From a virus (Duplodnaviria; Caudoviricetes), in the IMG/VR virus record IMGVR_UViG_3300010158_000078, positions 1 to 57,949 of that record: a stretch of 57,949 bases of DNA; one strand, written 5' to 3'. The position numbers and the translations under genes were made by a program. Positions 366-51,104 of the stretch are shown here, piece after piece. Under the pieces are notes generated by a model. It ran no database searches. It saw only the letters and a list, made by a program, of their open reading frames with translations, and had not been told where the DNA came from. The stretch's first letter is position 1; each line of letters starts with the position of its first letter.

Positions 366-2801
366 ATGGTAAAAGTAGATATAGATATTAAAAACATACC
401 GTTTCCTACTCAGTATGTTCCTGACTCTGAGAAAGAAACAAAAGAGTTTGGTCTAAAGATTGGGCAAAGCATTCAATATGAGTGGTTTAGAAAGGATGGG
501 CAACGTTCAAGATTTTATGATCAATGGACAGATTATCATAGATTAAGATTATACGCTAGAGGTGAACAGTCTGTACAAAAGTATAAGAATGAACTTGCTG
601 TTGATGGTGATTTATCTTACTTGAATTTAGACTGGACTCCAGTACCTATCATACCTAAGTTTGTAGATATTGTAGTTAACGGAATGTCTGATAGATTATT
701 TCATGTTAAGGCATACGCACAAGACGCTATGTCTGCTGCTAAGAGAAATAAATATCAGGACATGATAGAGACTGATATGGTTGCTAAACCATTACTAAGT
801 CAGATTAAAGATCAATTTGGAATTAATGCTTTTAATACTAACCCAGATGATTTACCAGAAACAGATGAAGAGCTTAACCTATATATGCAGCTTAACTATA
901 AGCCAGCTGTAGAGATAGCTGAAGAAGAAGCTATTAACACTGTTCTGGATTCTAATAAATATATGGATATTAGAAAAAGAGTTGATTACGATATTACTAC
1001 TATTGGAGTAGGAATTGTAAGGCATCAATTTCTACCAGGGCATGGAATTAAAATTGATTATGTTGATCCAGCTAGTATAGTTTATTCTTATACTGAGGAT
1101 CCATACTTTAAAGATTGTTTTTATTGGGGAGAGATTAAAACTGTCCCTATTACTGAGCTTTTAAAAATAGATCCTTCTTTAACAATAGATCAACTTGAAG
1201 AAATTTCTCTACACAGTCAGTCATGGTATAATTATTATAATGCCTCACAATACTATAATAATAGTTTATTCAATAGAGACTCTGCTACATTATTATACTA
1301 TAATTACAAGACTACTAAGAAGATTGTTTATAAGAAAAAAATAAATGATAACGGAGTAGTTAAGATGATACCTAAGGAAGATACTTTCAATCCACCTCAA
1401 GAGATGATGGAGGAAGGAAGATTCGAGATGGTAGAGAAACGTATTGATGTTTGGTACGAAGGTGTTATGGTTATGGGTACGAATTATGTACTTAAATGGG
1501 AAATGTCTAAGAACATGGTACGACCTAAGTCTGCATCTCAGTACGCTATGCCAAACTATATAGCAGTTGCACCTAGAATGTATAAAGGAAAGGTGGAGTC
1601 GTTAGTTCGTAGAATGACAACATTTGCCGATCTTATTCAGATTACACATCTTAAACTTCAACAGGTACTTGCTAAGATGGTGCCAGATGGGGTGTTTATT
1701 GATGCTGATGGACTTAACGAGGTTGATTTGGGTAATGGTCAAGCATATAATCCAGAGGACGCACTTAGATTGTACTTCCAGACTGGATCTGTTATAGGTA
1801 GGTCCTATACTCAAGACGGAGAATTTAATAATGCAAGGGTTCCAATCACAGAGCTTAACTCAAACAACGGACAAGGTAAAATAAGTGCTTTAGTTGGCAC
1901 GTATAACCATTATATGAGCATGATTAGAGACGTAACAGGTCTTAATGAGGCTCGTGATGGTAGCATGCCAGATCCAAATAGTTTGGTTGGAGTACAGAAG
2001 CTTGCAGCAGCTAACTCAAACACAGCTACAAGACATATACTAGATGCTAGTTTATATTTGACTAGAACATTATCTGAAGCTATATCATTAAGGGTAGCTG
2101 ACGTATTAGAATATTCAGACTTTAAAGAGCAGTTCGCTAACCAGATAGGTAAATACAACGTATCTATATTAGATGATATTAAGGATTTATATATCTATGA
2201 CTTTGGTATATTTATAGAGATGTCTCCAGACGAGGCTGAGAAAGCACAGCTTGAAGCTAATATTCAAATGGCACTTCAGAGAGATTCTATTGGATTAGAA
2301 GATGCTATTGACATTAGAGAGATTAAGAATCTTAAGTTAGCTAATCAATTACTTAAACTTAAGAAGAAAAAGAAACAAGACGAGACTCAAGCATACGAGC
2401 AACAGAAACAACAAGCTCAAGGTCAGATGCAAATGCAATCTCAACAGATGGCAGCACAGACAGCTATGCAGAATATACAAGCAGAGGCACAAGCTAAGAT
2501 GCAAGTTAAACAAGCAGAGACTCAGTTTGACATAGAAAAAATGAAACAAGAGGCTGAGCTTAAGTATCACCTTATGGAGGTTGAGTTCCAAATGAATATG
2601 CAGCTTAAAGGTGTGGATACTAAGAACATGGATATGAAGGATAATCTTAAAGAACAAGCAAAAGATAAAAGAGTAACGCTTCAGAATACACAACAGTCTA
2701 AATTGATTGAGCAGCGTAAGAATAATTTGCCTCCAGTTGATTTTGAATCTGAAGAAGATTCGCTTGATGGTTTTGATTTGGCTGAGTTCTCACCTCGATA
2801 A
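366..2801 (+). CDS. portal protein
   Basis: 811 aa; LNLDWTPVPIIPKFVDIVVNG motif and Q-rich coiled-coil C-terminus as in P22/crAss-type portals; follows TerL. Confidence 0.85.
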   Translation: MVKVDIDIKNIPFPTQYVPDSEKETKEFGLKIGQSIQYEWFRKDGQRSRFYDQWTDYHRLRLYARGEQSVQKYKNELAVDGDLSYLNLDWTPVPIIPKFVDIVVNGMSDRLFHVKAYAQDAMSAAKRNKYQDMIETDMVAKPLLSQIKDQFGINAFNTNPDDLPETDEELNLYMQLNYKPAVEIAEEEAINTVLDSNKYMDIRKRVDYDITTIGVGIVRHQFLPGHGIKIDYVDPASIVYSYTEDPYFKDCFYWGEIKTVPITELLKIDPSLTIDQLEEISLHSQSWYNYYNASQYYNNSLFNRDSATLLYYNYKTTKKIVYKKKINDNGVVKMIPKEDTFNPPQEMMEEGRFEMVEKRIDVWYEGVMVMGTNYVLKWEMSKNMVRPKSASQYAMPNYIAVAPRMYKGKVESLVRRMTTFADLIQITHLKLQQVLAKMVPDGVFIDADGLNEVDLGNGQAYNPEDALRLYFQTGSVIGRSYTQDGEFNNARVPITELNSNNGQGKISALVGTYNHYMSMIRDVTGLNEARDGSMPDPNSLVGVQKLAAANSNTATRHILDASLYLTRTLSEAISLRVADVLEYSDFKEQFANQIGKYNVSILDDIKDLYIYDFGIFIEMSPDEAEKAQLEANIQMALQRDSIGLEDAIDIREIKNLKLANQLLKLKKKKKQDETQAYEQQKQQAQGQMQMQSQQMAAQTAMQNIQAEAQAKMQVKQAETQFDIEKMKQEAELKYHLMEVEFQMNMQLKGVDTKNMDMKDNLKEQAKDKRVTLQNTQQSKLIEQRKNNLPPVDFESEEDSLDGFDLAEFSPR

Positions 2802-46630: not shown

Positions 46631-46869
46631 TAAATGCTTAAATAGTACTCTTCTAGTTCTTTCTTACTACAAGTATCAAAACCAAAATGATTAAGAAATG
46701 AATTTATGTGTCTCATAGTTGTATTCGAATACAAACCAAAAACTTCCATTTTGTTATTCAAATGGTCGTATTTCGCCACTATAGTATCATAGCTTTTTAA
46801 TAAAGATATATTATTCTCTGTCTCTATACTAGCTTTGCCGTAGAAACTTTTTTGTGTTAATGGTCTCAT
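46630..46869 (-). CDS. conserved small early phage protein
   Basis: KSFYGKA…LKSYDTIVA…YSNTTMRHINSFL. Confidence 0.6.
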   Translation of the reverse strand: MRPLTQKSFYGKASIETENNISLLKSYDTIVAKYDHLNNKMEVFGLYSNTTMRHINSFLNHFGFDTCSKKELEEYYLSI

Positions 46870-47201
46870 ATTGTTTTAAAGTATTGGTTATTAAATTTGT
46901 TTCGCGTACCCTTGTGGCTTTGGTTATATGCAAGCACGTCCATTGACTCAGTACTTACTGCAATGCACTCCTGAGTCATTACTGAGGCAAGATTTTCAAA
47001 GTCGGATAGTATCTTTGAGTCTCTGTTATACTTGTACTCAAACAAACCTACAAACGTTTCCTCAGGATGACCTTCGTACTCTGAACTGACTATTTGATAA
47101 GCCATCAAACGATAGCTTGAATCACTCGCCATTCTATCTATTACCTGCTCTGCCGTGTATGGGTTATTATTTAACCCGATGTTGATTGTTAGTGTTCTCA
47201 T
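46866..47201 (-). CDS. hypothetical early protein
   Basis: 111 aa. Confidence 0.55.
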   Translation of the reverse strand: MRTLTINIGLNNNPYTAEQVIDRMASDSSYRLMAYQIVSSEYEGHPEETFVGLFEYKYNRDSKILSDFENLASVMTQECIAVSTESMDVLAYNQSHKGTRNKFNNQYFKTI

Positions 47202-47466
47202 AATTAAAATGTGTTTTGTGTCGGTTCGACATGGTTAGTAATGTAATCGTTTAGTCTCTCTATGCTATCCGCATGGTAGGTGGTGCCCTGCACCTTTGCC
47301 GTGTACATGGTACGTGTTACTCTTGTGTAACTTGTCTGTGTGTAGGTTCTAATTTCCAAAGATATAATCTATAAGAGTTAATAATTGGCTTAGTACTATT
47401 ACTGCTATAAGCAGGAAGGTGGCCAATATACAGCCACCTTGAATTTCGTTTCGTTTCATGATATAA

Positions 47467-47519
47467 AGTGTTTCGTCGTTCTGCGACTCATCAGCATGAG
47501 TAACACACTCATGGACACT
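47467..47519 (-). ncRNA. type III hammerhead ribozyme
   Basis: AGTGTC^CATGAGT-GTGTT-ACTCATG CTGATGA GTCG-CAGAA-CGAC GAAACACT: intact CUGAUGA and GAAA core, GUC cleavage triplet, three paired stems. Confidence 0.92.
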
Positions 47520-47522
47520 GTC

Positions 47523-47630
47523 GTTAACAAAAGAATTGTAAGCACGTCACAATCGTTCTGTTAACCTGAGCCAAGCCTTCCGACCTGAAACCCGCAAACT
47601 AATGTTTTTAAACACGTCTGCCTGACTATG
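47523..47630 (-). ncRNA. candidate structured RNA between early promoter P2 and the hammerhead
   Basis: Hairpins GCAGAC…GTTTGC, CAGGTC-GGAA-GGCTTG and GTTAACAGAA…TTTTGTTAAC. Confidence 0.45.
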
Positions 47631-47643
47631 TATTTTGATGAAG

Positions 47644-47698
47644 CAAATGTATGTTGCTTTTTTCAATCTACCAAAACTTTAACAAAACTTTAACATTT
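47644..47698 (-). promoter_or_regulatory. early promoter P2
   Basis: TTTG (47672-47675), 20-nt spacer, TACATTTG (47644-47651); upstream 21-nt element identical to that of P1. Confidence 0.85.
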
Positions 47699-47706
47699 GC
47701 TAAAGA

Positions 47707-47858
47707 AAATACTAGTTGTCAATTTTAATCTTCCATAAGTTATTGTTATCATTAACGCCCTCTTCCTTTATGTGACCTTATCCGTTTCCGAGTGGGTTTC
47801 TTTAATGTTTCCAAACCTAACCTGTTTGATTTATTCTACAACTAGTATTTCAAAGAAC
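47707..47858 (-). ncRNA. candidate structured RNA with boxA-like site between P1 and P2
   Basis: Perfect 13-bp closing stem AAATACTAGTTGT/ACAACTAGTATTT, internal hairpins, GTTCTTTGA at the 5' side. Confidence 0.5.
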
Positions 47859-47878
47859 GTTGTCTCATTTTGACAGTA

Positions 47879-47933
47879 CAAACATACGACGGCTATTTGA
47901 CCTGTGCAAATTTTTAACAAAACTTTAACATTT
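47879..47933 (-). promoter_or_regulatory. early promoter P1
   Basis: TTTG (47907-47910), 20-nt spacer, TATGTTTG (47879-47886); upstream AAATGTTAAAGTTTTGTTAAA element. Confidence 0.85.
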
Positions 47934-48089
47934 CACTGGACTTAGCAGTTACTACCTTATTGACTTTGTAATAATATATGCTTACTCCTATATATAAAGA
48001 AGTTAAACGATTGTTTAATATTCGGGAAGATTATAAGGTTATAAGAATGTTGGGGAGTGTTATCCCCCGTCACAGCCCTTGAATACTCC

Positions 48090-48410
48090 TAAAACGCATT
48101 TTAAAGCCATTTCCACCACGATTATATTCTAAGACGATATAATATATCACCTCCTTCGAGTTCGTTGCTTAAACGCAAAACGCCAGTAAACATAAGGCTT
48201 TGCTTCTGCGATAAATCTATTGCTTGATAGGTTTTGTCTATCATTGTTTGTGTCTATAGTTGTCGAATATACTATATACCTATAAAACGCATTTTAAAGC
48301 GATTTAAGACACTTTTATGTCTCTGTCGTACTTAGATACCAATCCTTAGAGTTTGTTGAAAATCCAGTGGGGATAGGCTCTCGCGAGGTTTTTTACTAAC
48401 GATTGTTAGT
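48090..48410. repeat. diverged ~190-bp tandem units
   Basis: TAAAACGCATTTTAAAGC identical at 48090-48107 and 48283-48300; each followed by TCCTT(C/A)GAGTT(C/T)GTTG and CCAGT…GGCT blocks. Confidence 0.65.
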
Positions 48411-48432: not shown

Positions 48433-48695
48433 CATAGTATTATACTGTCTGTTATATTATACCAATTACTTTGTTATACATAGTACTGACGGCTCGGTCA
48501 GTCACTCAAGGTTTATACCAACTACCTTGCATCGCATAGTACCGCACATCGCAATACTAACTAACGTTTGTTAGTCTCTCTCTCGCCATAGCATAGTACA
48601 TTGCATAGCATAGTAGTGGGCACGGCCAAGCCATAGCACCAAGCCATAGCCATAGCACACGCGTTCACACAGACACCGACCTAGCCACGCCATAG
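48433..48695 (+). repeat. strand-polarised CATAG repeat array (possible packaging/terminus region)
   Basis: 11 CATAG copies, all on one strand, in about 260 non-coding bp. Confidence 0.7.
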
Positions 48696-48838
48696 CTAGG
48701 CTCCCGAAAAGCCAAAAAAACTAGAGGAAATGAACGATTTTGTACCCCCCGTAGCTGATTTGAAGTCGTTTTCTTTTGGAGCCCCGTCTCGCAGAATCGC
48801 CCTATAACCCCAACACTCTACATATCTAATATATTTAT

Positions 48839-48865: not shown

Positions 48866-49039
48866 ATGGAAAAGAAAAAAGATTTGAATGGGTTAAAAGT
48901 TAAGGATGGAAGACTGTTAAATTATCAACCTGATGGTGAGAATTTGATCAAGAAAATCTCTAGAATGAAAAAAGAAATTCATATCAACGAGAAGGTAAAC
49001 ACCATTTTAAGAGCAGAGCAAATTAAGAAAATGTTCTAA
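48866..49039 (+). CDS. small basic hypothetical protein (57 aa, not in ORF track)
   Basis: MEKKKDLNGLKVKDGRLLNYQPDG…, directly behind a promoter. Confidence 0.6.
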   Translation: MEKKKDLNGLKVKDGRLLNYQPDGENLIKKISRMKKEIHINEKVNTILRAEQIKKMF

Positions 49040-49050
49040 AACGCGTTTTT

Positions 49051-49499: not shown

Positions 49500-51104
49500 A
49501 TGGAAAACTACATGTACTCCCCTAAGGAGTTAGTCTTCGACCAAGAAGGTCGTGAGCTATTAATAAATGGTATCACTACCATTGCAAAGGCTGTTAAGAG
49601 CACGTTGGGACCAAGAGGAAACACTGTTCTTATAGAGTCAAGGAACCACACACATGGAATCACGGTTACTAAGGATGGTGTAACGGTTGCTAAGAGCATT
49701 GACCTAGTCAACCCAGTTGAGAACCTAGCGGTTAAGATGATGAAGGAGGCTGCTGATCGTACAGCATCGAGTGCTGGAGATGGTACGACCACTGCTATTG
49801 TCTTGACAGAGGCTATTGTTAGGATCGGTATGGAGCTTCTAACAGAGAGACATAACGTTACTGAGGTTATTCGATATATGAACCTTGTAACTGATGAGGT
49901 GCTTGCTGACCTTAAGAGAATGAGTCGTAAGGTAAAAGGAAACACCTTGAGAGATGTTGCTGCTATATCTGCTAATAACGACAAAGAGCTTGGAAGGATT
50001 ATCGCTGACGCGTACCAGAAGGTCGGAAGGGATGGTATTGTTACGATAGAGAACTCACAAACTGCTGACACATACTCTGAGGTGACCAACGGGATAAAGA
50101 TAGCTAGAGGATACACGAGCAAGCTGTTCGTTAATGACTTTAAGAAGGACGAGTGCATCATGGATGATGTGTATGTCTTGGTCACAGACCAGGAGATAAG
50201 CAACATACTATCGATTGAGAATATTTTGAAGCCTATCATTAATGATAATAAGAAGCTTTTGATCATTGGGCCATGCACGAGCAATGTGGTTAACACGCTT
50301 GCAGCGAATGTGGCACAGAACAATCTTAAGCTTTGTAACATCATGCCACCACAGTTTGGGTACAAGCAACAGGAGCTTATGGCTGATATTGCATTGGCTG
50401 TTGGGGCGAAGTACTTCAGCGAGCAGACTGGAGATGACTTGAGTCTAATCAAGATGGAGCACCTTGGTAAGGCGGATAGGATCATTGTGGATAGAGATAA
50501 GACCGTTATAGTTAGATCAGAGATTGCAAACGACGAAATTAAGGAGCGAGTTGAGCAGCTGTGGGTGCAACATAACCTTTCCAAGAGAAAGTCCGAGAGA
50601 GAGGCTGTAAAGGAGCGTATCGCGTCCTTAACTGGTGGTGTTGGTGTTATATATGTTGGTGGTAACTCAGACATTGAGCAGAAGGAGAGATACGATAGAG
50701 TTGATGATGCTGTGTGTGCTGTAAGATCTGCACTAGAGGAGGGCATTCTGCCAGGTGGTGGTTTGGCTCTGTTCAATATCGCAGATAAGATAAGTGCACA
50801 AACAGACGAGACGTTTGATATGCTTAGTAACAATGAGTATGTTGCACGCCAGATAATGTCAAGAGCTATTGAGACTCCATTATTGCAGATCATAACTAAT
50901 GCTGGTAAGGATGGATTCGAGATAATGGCATTGGCTGAGGGTGGTAACCATGGTTATGACGTTAAGCACGAGGTGTATGGTGACATGTTCAAGATGGGGA
51001 TCATTGATCCGCTTAAGGTTACCAATAACGCGTTAAAGAACGCGGTGAGTGTTGCCACAACTATTTTAAGTACAAACGCAATTATAACAATAGCAAGAGC
51101 ATAA
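49500..51104 (+). CDS. groEL: chaperonin GroEL (phage-encoded)
   Basis: TLGPRG, VTKDGVTVAK, AGDGTTT, EEGILPGGG and GIIDPLKV motifs; no GGM tail. Confidence 0.97.
   Translation: MENYMYSPKELVFDQEGRELLINGITTIAKAVKSTLGPRGNTVLIESRNHTHGITVTKDGVTVAKSIDLVNPVENLAVKMMKEAADRTASSAGDGTTTAIVLTEAIVRIGMELLTERHNVTEVIRYMNLVTDEVLADLKRMSRKVKGNTLRDVAAISANNDKELGRIIADAYQKVGRDGIVTIENSQTADTYSEVTNGIKIARGYTSKLFVNDFKKDECIMDDVYVLVTDQEISNILSIENILKPIINDNKKLLIIGPCTSNVVNTLAANVAQNNLKLCNIMPPQFGYKQQELMADIALAVGAKYFSEQTGDDLSLIKMEHLGKADRIIVDRDKTVIVRSEIANDEIKERVEQLWVQHNLSKRKSEREAVKERIASLTGGVGVIYVGGNSDIEQKERYDRVDDAVCAVRSALEEGILPGGGLALFNIADKISAQTDETFDMLSNNEYVARQIMSRAIETPLLQIITNAGKDGFEIMALAEGGNHGYDVKHEVYGDMFKMGIIDPLKVTNNALKNAVSVATTILSTNAIITIARA

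What the first reader, a model, noticed from the sequence alone, without database searches (positions are those of the whole stretch)
47459..47519. Canonical type III hammerhead ribozyme at the head of the early transcript
Seen: stem III AGTGT/ACACT, GUC cleavage site (cut between 47514 and 47513), stem I CATGAGT/ACTCATG, CUGAUGA, stem II GTCG/CGAC and GAAA. It lies downstream of both early promoters and 7 nt before the first early ATG (47459). Known: cleavage leaves a 2',3'-cyclic phosphate upstream and a 5'-OH downstream; hammerheads occur in phages but their roles are mostly unknown. Inference: transcripts from P1 and P2 get one uniform, hairpin-protected 5'-OH end, and the upstream leaders are released as free RNAs.
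Basis: partly seen in the sequence, partly recalled or inferred. Interest (0 to 1): 0.8.

Follow-up and report, generated by a model that had tools for sequence, protein, structure and literature searches.

The report
Hammerhead ribozyme heading phage early genes
A genuine-looking self-cutting hammerhead RNA sits just before the first early gene of this uncultured freshwater phage and of dozens of relatives, including cultured Flavobacterium phages; this kind of element is already known in phages, and its cutting and purpose remain untested.

Summary
On the minus strand, 47519-47467 carries every core nucleotide and all three helices of a type III hammerhead. The GTC cleavage site lies between 47514 and 47513, and the stem III 3' arm ends 7 nt before the ATG at 47459. 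It is not chance: a loose descriptor hits once in the window and 0 times in 300 shuffles. A covariance model built only from 46 other viral contigs scores it 69.2 bits, against 12.1 for the next match. Across 50 distinct homologues the helices covary strongly. Rfam misses it (27.6 bits, gathering score 48.5).

It is a single-copy, syntenic module in GroEL-encoding phages of Flavobacterium type. It stands once in each of 8 whole IMG/VR relatives and is unannotated in 68 cultured Flavobacterium phage records. The ribozyme-to-ATG spacing is tight (15-20 nt in 53 of 61).

Best reading: co-transcriptional self-cleavage removes interchangeable structured leaders and gives the early mRNA a fixed, hairpin-capped 5'-OH end, like the synthetic insulator RiboJ. 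Cleavage and effect are inferred; no RNA data were available. Haloviruses HF1/HF2 (Perreault 2011) are a published precedent, so this is a new member of a known kind. This scan has noted hammerheads heading phage early operons on other DNA. Their one-to-many layout is absent here.

The parts
47467..47519 (-). Complete type III hammerhead ribozyme motif
   Evidence: Sequence read. One hit with the loose descriptor against 0 in 300 shuffles. Leave-one-out model R2 gives 69.2 bits.
47515..47519 (-). Stem III 5' arm (AGTGT), ending in U16.1
   Evidence: The stem III columns covary in homologues.
47513..47514 (-). Predicted cleavage site: C17 is 47514 and the scissile bond lies between 47514 and 47513. 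The 3' product would begin at 47513.
   Evidence: Position relative to the conserved core. H17 is A, C or T in all 66 parsed homologues and never G. Cleavage itself is not tested.
47495..47513 (-). Stem I hairpin: 7 bp CATGAGT/ACTCATG with loop GTGTT
   Evidence: The five core-proximal pairs are 100% paired and all covary in 46 homologues.
47488..47494 (-). Catalytic core strand CTGATGA (C3 to A9)
   Evidence: It was fixed by the search pattern in the IMG/VR homologues. The Flavobacterium phage copy, found by the model, has CTGAAGA, a change at the tolerated position 7.
47475..47487 (-). Stem II hairpin: 4 bp GTCG/CGAC with loop CAGAA
   Evidence: Stem II is paired in 100% of homologues and 3 of its 4 pairs covary, although the search pattern left those bases free.
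47467..47474 (-). Core GAA (G12 to A14) plus the stem III 3' arm ACACT, beginning with A15.1
47457..47466 (-). 7-nt A/T-rich spacer and the ATG of the first ORF
   Evidence: In homologues the distance from A15.1 to the ATG is 15-20 nt in 53 of 61; here it is 11.
47349..47459 (-). First ORF of the leftward block: 36 aa with a hydrophobic segment
   Evidence: Its 5' part (47406-47462) recurs in another metagenome contig behind a different upstream sequence (run X4).
47514..47640 (-). Putative P2 leader RNA that cleavage would release (its start is a guess from the -7 box). It includes a long hairpin at about 47523-47565.
   Evidence: MFE -39.3 kcal/mol against -24.9 +/- 2.9 for shuffles, z = -5.0. 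In co-occurring relatives this stretch is replaced by 150 other letters.
47644..47675 (-). Promoter-like site P2 (TTTG, 20 nt, TACATTTG)
   Evidence: The 27-nt upstream element is shared with P1 (D7). It is a conserved island in metagenome contigs.
47879..47910 (-). Promoter-like site P1 (TTTG, 20 nt, TATGTTTG)
   Evidence: D7 (47907-47933 is 93% identical to 47672-47698).

Best explanation
47519-47467 (minus strand) encodes an active type III hammerhead ribozyme. It is a single-copy, conserved module at the head of the early gene block in a lineage of GroEL-encoding phages of Flavobacterium type.

Proposed mechanism:
1. Transcripts start at P2, about 125 nt upstream, and probably also at P1, about 360 nt upstream.
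2. They fold the ribozyme as it is made and cut themselves between 47514 and 47513.
3. The short 5-bp stem III then falls apart.
4. The structured leader leaves with a 2',3'-cyclic phosphate.
5. The early polycistronic mRNA keeps a fixed 5'-OH end that is buried in the stem I hairpin. Behind it come stem II and about 15 unpaired A/U-rich bases leading to the first AUG.

The ribozyme therefore works like a natural RiboJ-type insulator. Whichever leader lies upstream and whichever gene lies downstream, the message starts in the same way.

Shown: the motif, its homology, covariation, single copy, synteny and spacing.
Inferred: cleavage, product release, and the effect on stability or translation.

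My odds: real self-cleaving hammerhead about 0.9. Main role is defining the mRNA 5' end about 0.55.
For: Motif and chance:
- Complete core and helices. One descriptor hit in the window against 0 in 300 shuffles.

Homologues:
- A pattern that fixes only the core and loop 2 found 66 viral contigs. With the window that makes 67 matches, and 66 of 67 parse as full type III hammerheads.
- On a MAFFT alignment of 50 distinct copies, 90.2% of cells are paired, against 25-43% when the partners are slid. There are 228 double-change cells against 58 in shuffles (0 of 500 shuffles reach it). Stem II is 100% paired. Without the window the figure is 91.7%.
- The leave-one-out model scores the window copy 69.2 bits.

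Synteny:
- 20 of the loci carry a GroEL homologue; 19 are 62.9-73% identical and L003 is 38.6%. 16 loci carry a homologue of the 111-aa early ORF.
- The ribozyme occurs exactly once in the window and once in each of 8 whole IMG/VR relatives, 7 of them rated 100% complete. It also occurs once in Flavobacterium phage vB_FspP_elemoB_14-3B, 15 nt before the gp62 ATG.
- 68 Flavobacterium phage records hold the segment, unannotated.

Link to the downstream message:
- The first ATG after A15.1 opens an ORF of at least 30 aa in 59 of 62 distinct contexts. The spacing is 15-20 nt in 53 of 61, although the encoded proteins differ.
- In 44 of the 49 loci with a scorable upstream ORF, at least 232 nt upstream are free of ORFs of 70 aa or more.

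Modularity:
- Metagenome contigs share 47466-47519 and the promoter boxes but diverge exactly at the ribozyme's two edges. In one form the leader 47519-47634 is replaced by 150 other letters.

Predicted 3' product:
- Two 5' hairpins, then an unpaired stretch across the AUG.

Precedents:
- HF1/HF2 hammerhead 13 nt before the first early ORF, with the transcript 5' end mapped within 3 nt of the cleavage site (PMC3088659, passages).
- RiboJ raised protein abundance 2-10 fold and transcript abundance about 2 fold in E. coli (PMC6206723, abstract).
Against: - No RNA evidence of any kind. Cleavage is not demonstrated.
- Rfam Hammerhead_3 scores only 27.6 bits against a gathering score of 48.5. Of the 10 homologous loci tested, only 1 reached the gathering score for this ribozyme.
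- The nearest-neighbour energy model prefers a non-native fold by 1.8 kcal/mol. In that fold part of the core pairs with stem I. In a full-length fold stem III does not form.
- A crude accessibility calculation on 58 homologues does not show that cleavage frees the start region. Mean unpaired probability over -15 to +5 is 0.575 uncleaved and 0.604 cleaved. The cleaved form is higher in 30 of 58 (Wilcoxon p = 0.20).
- In the window the spacer is shorter than the family mode: 11 nt from A15.1 to the ATG against 18.
- The closest GenBank relative by GroEL (MW202828, 56.5%) has no match to the model.
- A 5'-OH end is not protective in itself. As I recall, the glmS ribozyme's 5'-OH product is degraded by RNase J1 in Bacillus.
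- Loop 2 and the core were fixed by my search patterns, so their conservation in the IMG/VR set is not independent evidence.
Confidence: 0.6

Rival explanations
1. The ribozyme exists mainly to make the upstream RNA. It sets a precise 3' end with a cyclic phosphate, backed by a hairpin, on one or two structured leader RNAs. These then act on their own, for example as decoys, regulators or partners of RNA polymerase. The effect on the mRNA is secondary.
For: - The putative P2 leader is far more structured than shuffles (z = -5.0).
- A hairpin lies directly before the ribozyme here and in the relatives. By eye, it shows compensatory changes between variants in the listing.
- In the predicted fold of the released leader, its 3' end pairs back into the leader.
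- Most loci have a long ORF-poor stretch upstream.
Against: - The leader is the variable part. At least three or four unrelated-looking variants sit before the same ribozyme, and a 150-letter replacement occurs in co-occurring relatives.
- The spacing to the downstream ATG is tightly kept: 53 of 61 at 15-20 nt. A pure leader-release role does not require that.
- In five high-GC phages the ribozyme sits 6-92 nt after an upstream same-strand ORF, with no room for a leader RNA.
- No Rfam family matches the leader.
Confidence: 0.2
2. Cleavage is a translational switch. Stem III covers bases just upstream of the start codon (-12 to -8 here), so only cut molecules, whose stem III has melted, can load ribosomes. 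The host group largely lacks Shine-Dalgarno pairing and needs an unstructured A/U-rich start region.
For: - The stem III 3' arm ends 7 nt before the ATG here and about 8-14 nt before it in most homologues.
- The spacers are A/U-rich in the low-GC group and carry Shine-Dalgarno-like purine runs in the high-GC group.
- The predicted 3' product leaves the AUG region unpaired.
Against: - The accessibility calculation gives no systematic gain on cleavage: 0.575 against 0.604, higher in 30 of 58, p = 0.20. For the window the values are 0.602 against 0.628.
- A 5-bp helix is a weak barrier to a ribosome.
- The thermodynamic model cannot represent the tertiary fold, so this test is weak in both directions.
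Confidence: 0.12
3. Cleavage down-regulates or times the early genes. Removing the triphosphate end and the leader exposes the message to 5'-end-dependent decay, as with glmS, or separates it from an antitermination leader.
For: - The glmS precedent, which is recalled.
- The review PMC6765202 (passages) says bacterial hammerheads may give transcripts of different stability or translation efficiency and that their purpose is undefined.
Against: - The 3' product begins inside a 7-bp hairpin with no single-stranded 5' tail. By established knowledge of 5'-terminal stem-loops, this hinders 5'-end-dependent RNases.
- A constitutive canonical ribozyme with no evident ligand pocket offers no obvious control point.
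Confidence: 0.06
4. The motif is an inactive relic, a chance match or a DNA-level palindrome.
For: - It falls below the Rfam gathering score.
- The MFE z-score is not significant.
Against: - 0 hits in 300 shuffles; 69.2 bits with an independent model.
- Strong compensatory covariation in three helices.
- An asymmetric core that always has the orientation of the downstream ORF.
- Near-identical conservation as an island between divergent flanks.
Confidence: 0.02

Closest known systems
Type III hammerhead ribozymes (Rfam RF00008 Hammerhead_3, clan CL00010)
   Same: All core nucleotides, the G10.1-C11.1 pair, capped stems I and II, an open stem III and a GUC site. One close homologue (L003) passes the Rfam gathering score at 49.6 bits against 48.5.
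   Different: The window copy and most of its relatives fall below the gathering score: 27.6 bits here, and only 1 of the 10 homologous loci tested passes. This subgroup has a short 4-6 bp stem III, loop 1 GTGTT paired with loop 2 CAGAA (20 of the 25 type III copies found through loop 1) and a DNA-phage context, not a viroid or satellite one.
HHphage of haloviruses HF1/HF2 (Perreault et al. 2011, PMC3088659; passages read)
   Same: A hammerhead a few bases before the start codon of the first ORF of an early polycistronic unit (13 nt there, 7 nt after stem III here). There the transcript 5' end was mapped within 3 nt of the cleavage site.
   Different: That ribozyme is a structural variant discussed as salt-dependent, in an archaeal virus, and precedes a helicase gene. 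This one has a canonical core, lies in a bacterial phage lineage of Flavobacterium type, and precedes a variable small ORF.
Clustered hammerheads flanking single genes in prophages (Perreault et al. 2011), and the one-ribozyme, many-sites layouts noted by this scan on other phages
   Same: Phage setting, and presumed processing of early or polycistronic RNA.
   Different: There is exactly one copy per genome here. There are no extra substrate-like sites: 15 matches with up to 3 mismatches against 15.07 expected. With stem I capped, the cut ribozyme has no free arm pair for cutting in trans.
RiboJ synthetic ribozyme insulator (PMC6206723, abstract read; original design recalled)
   Same: A hammerhead placed between the promoter and the ribosome-binding region. 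It removes a variable leader, so the message always starts the same way, and most of the ribozyme stays on the mRNA.
   Different: RiboJ is engineered from a plant satellite ribozyme with an added hairpin and was tested in E. coli. This element is natural and untested, and its host group uses a different style of translation initiation.
glmS ribozyme (recalled)
   Same: A ribozyme in a bacterial 5' leader whose cut leaves a 5'-OH on the coding part.
   Different: glmS is ligand-dependent and its cut destabilises the mRNA. No ligand pocket is evident here, and the new 5' end is base-paired.

Membership tests
Hammerhead ribozyme, type III (Rfam RF00008) | Conserved catalytic core: C3 U4 G5 A6 N7 G8 A9, G12 A13 A14, the A15.1-U16.1 pair, and H17 not G (numbering recalled from the standard nomenclature) | tested here: met
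   CTGATGA 47494-47488, GAA 47474-47472, A 47471 pairing with T 47515, C 47514. The descriptor hit is unique.
Hammerhead ribozyme, type III (Rfam RF00008) | Three helices around the core, with stems I and II capped by loops and stem III open | tested here: met
   Stem I 7 bp, stem II 4 bp, stem III 5 bp. The model alignment is full length, positions 1-55.
Hammerhead ribozyme, type III (Rfam RF00008) | G10.1-C11.1 pair at the base of stem II | tested here: met
   G 47487 pairs with C 47475. The pair is GC in all 50 homologues, but those two bases were fixed by the search pattern.
Hammerhead ribozyme, type III (Rfam RF00008) | Helices supported by compensatory changes in homologues | tested here: met
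   14 of 17 pairs show double changes. 90.2% and 91.7% of cells are paired, against 25-43% when the partners are slid. 0 of 500 shuffles reach the covariation score. The alignment was made by MAFFT and not fitted to the structure.
Hammerhead ribozyme, type III (Rfam RF00008) | Score at or above Rfam's curated gathering score (an operational threshold, not a biological feature) | tested here: not met
   27.6 bits against 48.5, with a mis-registered alignment that uses the second AGTGT at 47509-47505. The homologue L003 passes with 49.6.
Hammerhead ribozyme, type III (Rfam RF00008) | Tertiary contact between loop 1 and loop 2, needed for fast cleavage at cellular magnesium levels | tested here: inconclusive
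   Loop 1 TGTGTTA co-occurs with loop 2 CAGAA in 20 of 27 loci found through loop 1 alone. I saw no Watson-Crick complementarity between the loops. The geometry cannot be tested with these tools.
Hammerhead ribozyme, type III (Rfam RF00008) | Site-specific self-cleavage giving a 2',3'-cyclic phosphate and a 5'-OH | not testable with these tools
   No RNA run was listed. This needs in vitro transcription or end-specific RNA-seq.
Hammerhead at the head of a viral early operon (HF1/HF2 type arrangement) | Ribozyme within about 20 nt upstream of the start codon of the first ORF of the early polycistronic unit | tested here: met
   7 nt from the end of stem III to the ATG. Downstream come small ORFs of unknown function, then Sak-like annealing protein, exonuclease and primase/helicase genes on the same strand. 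'Early' is inferred from gene content.
Hammerhead at the head of a viral early operon (HF1/HF2 type arrangement) | Transcript 5' end maps at the cleavage site in vivo | not testable with these tools
   No RNA holder listed.
Multi-hammerhead or one-to-many operon punctuation | Several ribozymes, or several substrate-like sites, along one operon | tested here: not met
   One model hit in the window; the next best scores are 11.5 and 12.1 bits. Substrate-like sites number 15 against 15.07 expected. There is one hit per whole genome in 8 of 8 relatives.
RiboJ-like 5' leader insulator (a functional class, not a homology family) | Self-cleaving ribozyme between the promoter(s) and the translation start, so that different leaders give the same mRNA 5' end | tested here: inconclusive
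   The layout is met: promoter-like sites lie 125 and 360 nt upstream, and leaders and first genes are interchangeable around an invariant ribozyme. The effect on expression is not testable here.

The most novel reading that the evidence does not exclude
The ribozyme is the fixed joint of a modular early-control region. In this phage lineage, promoter-leader cassettes on its 5' side and first early genes on its 3' side are exchanged by recombination at the ribozyme's own edges. Self-cleavage makes those swaps harmless, because the message always begins with the same hairpin-capped 5'-OH and the same roughly 18-nt run-up to the AUG. That would make it a natural, evolutionarily used counterpart of the synthetic RiboJ insulator. 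The released leaders would be free to evolve as separate small RNAs.
Probability: 0.3. Interest if true: 0.65.

Novelty: new member of a known kind. Interest (0 to 1): 0.42.

Why it matters
Thousands of hammerheads are known in phages and bacteria, but a 2019 review still calls their purpose undefined (PMC6765202, passages). This copy adds no new chemistry. Its family does offer a clean test case.
- There is one ribozyme per genome, always at the head of the early block.
- The spacing to the start codon is fixed, while the leaders and the first genes vary.
- The same element is present, unannotated, in 68 cultured Flavobacterium phage genomes with a known laboratory host.

A core-dead mutant, end-specific RNA-seq and a reporter could therefore show directly what a phage hammerhead is for. 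The result also shows that Rfam's gathering score misses most of this subgroup: only 1 of the 10 homologous loci tested passed.

Tried and rejected
- RNA evidence: the look-up of sequencing runs listed 9 DNA runs and no RNA holder, so expression and cleavage could not be examined.
- Reads: read laying on contigs of four DNA runs cannot show RNA ends. I used it only to see which parts are shared between co-occurring relatives.
- Sequence similarity to deposited phages: blastn of 46800-48300 and of the 66-nt ribozyme stretch against the 50,697 phage records gave no match. The Flavobacterium phage copies were found only with the covariance model and with a relative's ribozyme as the query.
- A weak blastn match of that relative's ribozyme inside a Bacillus SPbeta-type phage gene is not a hammerhead. 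The model finds nothing in that locus.
- One ribozyme with many remote cleavage sites, a lead from earlier notes of this scan: rejected for this window.
- Further ribozyme copies in the window: none.
- Unmasking of the start codon by cleavage: the accessibility calculation gave no support.
- Thermodynamic stability of the ribozyme as evidence: rejected (z = -0.42; the native fold is not the MFE).
- Rfam families in the leaders (47440-48000, E up to 1): none besides the hammerhead.
- Bacterial genomes: the loop-2 pattern hit only 11 contigs in the collection of 185,579 species' genomes. Four are good type III copies in Firmicutes or Oscillospiraceae MAGs, two look like type I, and five lack a stem II and are chance matches. 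The class is therefore essentially viral.
- Literature: searches for hammerhead with Flavobacterium phage (4 papers, none relevant by title) and for hammerhead, bacteriophage, early genes and ribozyme from 2012 on (0 papers) found no description of this lineage's ribozyme. Subscription journals and supplementary files were not searchable. The supplementary hammerhead lists of Perreault 2011 may already contain members of this subgroup.
- Not used: protein searches of the large databases, structure prediction and complex prediction. None bears on an RNA motif.
Full report
**1. Observation.**
- stem III AGTGT (47519-47515) pairs with ACACT (47471-47467);
- C17 is at 47514, so the predicted cut lies between 47514 and 47513;
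- stem I CATGAGT/ACTCATG (47513-47507 and 47501-47495) with loop GTGTT;
- core CTGATGA (47494-47488);
- stem II GTCG/CGAC with loop CAGAA (47487-47475);
- GAAA (47474-47471);
- a 7-nt spacer, then the ATG at 47459, which opens a 36-aa ORF.

**2. Chance.**
A loose descriptor of my own (stems of at least 4, 3 and 3 bp, core position 7 free) finds this one site and no other on either strand. It finds none in 300 dinucleotide-preserving shuffles of the window.

**3. Database and energy results that go against it.**
- Rfam at gathering thresholds reports nothing in the window.
- With relaxed thresholds Hammerhead_3 reaches 27.6 bits against a gathering score of 48.5. The alignment is mis-registered. 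It uses a second AGTGT inside stem I (47509-47505) as stem III and loses stem I.
- The minimum-free-energy fold of the 71-nt stretch is no better than shuffles (z = -0.42).
- The native secondary structure (-13.4 kcal/mol) is 1.8 kcal/mol worse than an alternative in which part of the core pairs with stem I.
- These models ignore tertiary contacts, so they do not refute activity. They do not support it either.

**4. Homologues.**
- A pattern fixing the core, stem II and the first stem III bases found four viral contigs. Two distinct ones have the same architecture with compensatory changes in stem I.
- A pattern fixing only CTGATGAG, loop 2 CAGAA and CGAAAC found 66 viral contigs. With the window that makes 67 matches, and 66 parse as complete type III hammerheads with U16.1, a non-G H17 and all three helices. 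The exception is cut off by a contig end.
- I aligned the 50 distinct sequences with MAFFT. Three rows (L012, L016, L020) were shifted by two columns.
- On that alignment 90.2% of cells form standard pairs, against 25-43% when the 3' partners are slid by 1-3 columns. There are 228 cells with changes on both sides, against 58 +/- 9 in shuffles. 0 of 500 shuffles reach the covariation score. Stem II, whose three inner pairs the pattern left free, is 100% paired and those three pairs all covary.
- Leaving out the window and the three shifted rows gives 91.7% paired, with stem I 100% paired.
- A covariance model built from those 46 sequences scores the window copy 69.2 bits (E about 1e-18, rough calibration). 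The next match scores 12.1 bits.
- Caveat: the core and loop 2 were fixed by my patterns, so their conservation in this set is not evidence.
- A search anchored on loop 1 instead gave 27 loci. Twenty carry CAGAA, five are type III with another loop 2, and two are type I. The pairing of loop 1 with loop 2 is therefore real.
- In the collection of one genome for each of 185,579 species, the loop-2 pattern hits only 11 contigs. Five of these lack a stem II and are chance matches.

**5. Which phages.**
- tblastn of the window's ORFs against the fetched loci shows that 20 loci carry a homologue of the window's GroEL gene (49500-51104). Nineteen are 62.9-73% identical. Sixteen loci carry a homologue of the 111-aa ORF just downstream of the ribozyme.
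- In these loci, as in the window, GroEL is divergently oriented about 1-2 kb from the ribozyme.
- The nearest deposited genomes by GroEL are an uncultured podovirus (MW202828, 56.5%) and the Flavobacterium phages vB_FspP_elemo (38.8%).
- Searching whole records with the model gives exactly one hit in each of eight IMG/VR relatives, seven of them rated 100% complete. It gives one hit (67.9 bits) in Flavobacterium phage vB_FspP_elemoB_14-3B and none in MW202828.
- The cultured phage's copy was not in the training set. It has CTGAAGA, a change at the tolerated core position 7. It lies between divergent genes, 15 nt before the ATG of gp62, and is not annotated.
- With a relative's ribozyme as the blastn query, 68 Flavobacterium phage records hold the segment at 92% over 51 nt, with no feature annotated under it.
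- Of the 10 homologous loci scanned with Rfam at gathering thresholds, only one ribozyme of this class passed (L003, 49.6 bits).

**6. Context.**
- The first ATG after A15.1 opens an ORF of at least 30 aa in 59 of 62 distinct contexts. The distance from A15.1 to the ATG is 15-20 nt in 53 of 61 (median 18, and 11 in the window). The encoded N-termini fall into many unrelated groups.
- Low-GC members have A/U-rich spacers. High-GC members place a purine-rich Shine-Dalgarno-like run there.
- Of the 59 distinct contexts, 49 have a scorable upstream ORF of at least 70 aa. In 44 of those 49, at least 232 nt before the ribozyme are ORF-free. In the five exceptions, all high-GC, the ribozyme sits 6-92 nt after an upstream same-strand ORF.
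- In the window the ribozyme follows a region of about 2 kb with few ORFs.
- Two sites match TTTG-N20-TAnnTTTG, the Bacteroidota promoter form (recalled): 47675-47644 and 47910-47879. Each is preceded by the same 27-nt element (93% identical).
- A similar element and -7 box precede the ribozyme of the cultured Flavobacterium phage by about 185 nt.
- Window-wide the promoter pattern is only weakly enriched: 6 hits against 2.31 expected, and 5 of 100 shuffles reach 6.
- The leftward block runs from small ORFs of unknown function into a Sak-like annealing protein, an exonuclease, a primase/helicase and a helicase. This fits an early-to-middle transcription unit. The timing is inferred.

**7. Modularity.**
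- Contigs of four freshwater DNA runs laid on 47200-48000 share 47466-47519 and the two promoter boxes at 95-100% identity but depart at the ribozyme's edges.
- Several contigs run on with unlike sequence exactly below 47466; that is, a different first gene follows.
- In two runs a contig joins 47519 to 47634 through 150 other letters; that is, a different leader precedes.
- Logan contigs break at sequence shared between strains, so the break points themselves partly reflect assembly. Even so, they show the ribozyme as an invariant island between variable flanks.
- This matches the three or four unrelated-looking hairpin-bearing leader variants seen before near-identical ribozymes in the IMG/VR loci.

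**8. Mechanism.**
- Here the 5' fragment would be the leader. From the guessed P2 start it is about 127 nt and is predicted to be strongly structured (MFE -39.3 against -24.9 +/- 2.9, z = -5.0).
- The 3' fragment would begin at 47513, inside the 7-bp stem I. Stem II follows, and then an unpaired stretch across the AUG.
- With only 5 bp in stem III, the products should separate.
- The tight and gene-independent ribozyme-to-ATG spacing argues that the element serves the downstream message and not only the leader.
- The layout is that of the synthetic insulator RiboJ. In E. coli RiboJ raised protein abundance 2-10 fold and transcript abundance about 2 fold (PMC6206723, abstract).
- I tested one specific version, that cleavage frees the start region from stem III, with partition-function accessibilities on 58 homologues. 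It found no support: 0.575 against 0.604, higher in 30 of 58, p = 0.20.
- I therefore commit only to 5'-end definition and leader removal as the primary role (about 0.55, given activity of about 0.9). The leader-release and translational-switch versions are kept as rivals.

**9. What is known.**
- Perreault et al. 2011 (PMC3088659; passages read) report thousands of hammerheads, many in phage and prophage contexts.
- They showed tandem ribozymes flanking genes to be active in vitro and in E. coli.
- They describe a hammerhead variant in haloviruses HF1/HF2 13 nt upstream of the start codon of the first ORF of an early polycistronic transcript. That transcript's 5' end had been mapped within three nucleotides of the cleavage site.
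- A 2019 review (PMC6765202, passages) says the purpose of bacterial and phage hammerheads remains to be defined.
- A 2026 paper reports ribozymes a few bases before ORF start codons in RNA viruses of fungi and plants, linked to translation (PMC13725137, passages).
- My searches found no description of a hammerhead in Flavobacterium phages.

**10. Earlier notes of this scan.**
- Notes on this genome describe the two promoters, the leaders and this ribozyme as one cascade. I checked parts of that.
- Notes on other genomes describe hammerheads heading phage early operons with many remote substrate sites. I tested that lead here and it fails: 15 sites with up to 3 mismatches against 15.07 expected, and one ribozyme per genome.

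**11. Verdict.**
The element is a new member of a known kind: a canonical type III hammerhead in a phage, in an arrangement with a published precedent. Its value lies in the family picture (single copy, syntenic, fixed spacing, variable flanks, missed by Rfam) and in the fact that cultured Flavobacterium phages carry it, which makes its function directly testable. Interest 0.42.

Noticed in passing
window 48440-48700: Dense short direct repeats built on CTATGG- and ACTATGC-like units (families D1 and D6), inside the roughly 2-kb ORF-poor region between the divergent GroEL block and the early block. They may be iterons or protein-binding arrays.
   Followed up: no
window 48083-48125, 48276-48318 and 49036-49049: A 43-nt direct repeat (77% identical) with the core AAAACGCATTTTAAAGC, and a third partial copy nearer the GroEL gene (D2 and D5).
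   Followed up: no
window 47514-47640 (minus strand): The putative P2 leader is predicted to be unusually structured (z = -5.0). It includes a hairpin of about 18 bp ending a few bases before the ribozyme. Co-occurring relatives carry a different 150-letter leader in this slot. No Rfam family matches it.
   Followed up: partly
window 47420-47640 (minus strand): In a full-length fold, the stem III 5' arm pairs with ACAT near the leader's 5' end. The core's TGATG pairs with CATCA at the guessed transcript start, so stem III does not form. This may be a leader-dependent brake on ribozyme folding, or an artefact of the guessed start.
   Followed up: no
NC_062741.1 19025-19079 (locus L072 about 1500-1555, minus strand) and 67 further Flavobacterium phage elemo records: An unannotated hammerhead of the same class, with core CTGAAGA, lies 15 nt before the gp62 ATG and about 185 nt downstream of a TTTG...TATATTTG promoter-like site with a similar upstream element.
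   Followed up: partly
L014 6181-6249; L077 3317-3369, 4183-4236 and 5994-6046; L086 2777-2832 and 3183-3238: Other, unrelated viral or MAG contigs carry several hammerheads close together. These include a type II copy that passes Rfam's gathering score (46.9 against 37), about 800 nt after the type III one in L014.
   Followed up: no
window 49500-51104 (plus strand): The phage encodes a GroEL chaperonin. Homologues 62.9-73% identical are present in 19 of the ribozyme-bearing contigs, and it is 38.8% identical to the GroEL of Flavobacterium elemo phages.
   Followed up: partly
window 47505-47509 and 47515-47519 (minus strand): AGTGT occurs twice, once as the stem III arm and once inside stem I. 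This explains Rfam's mis-registered 27.6-bit alignment and offers an alternative partner for the stem III 3' arm.
   Followed up: partly
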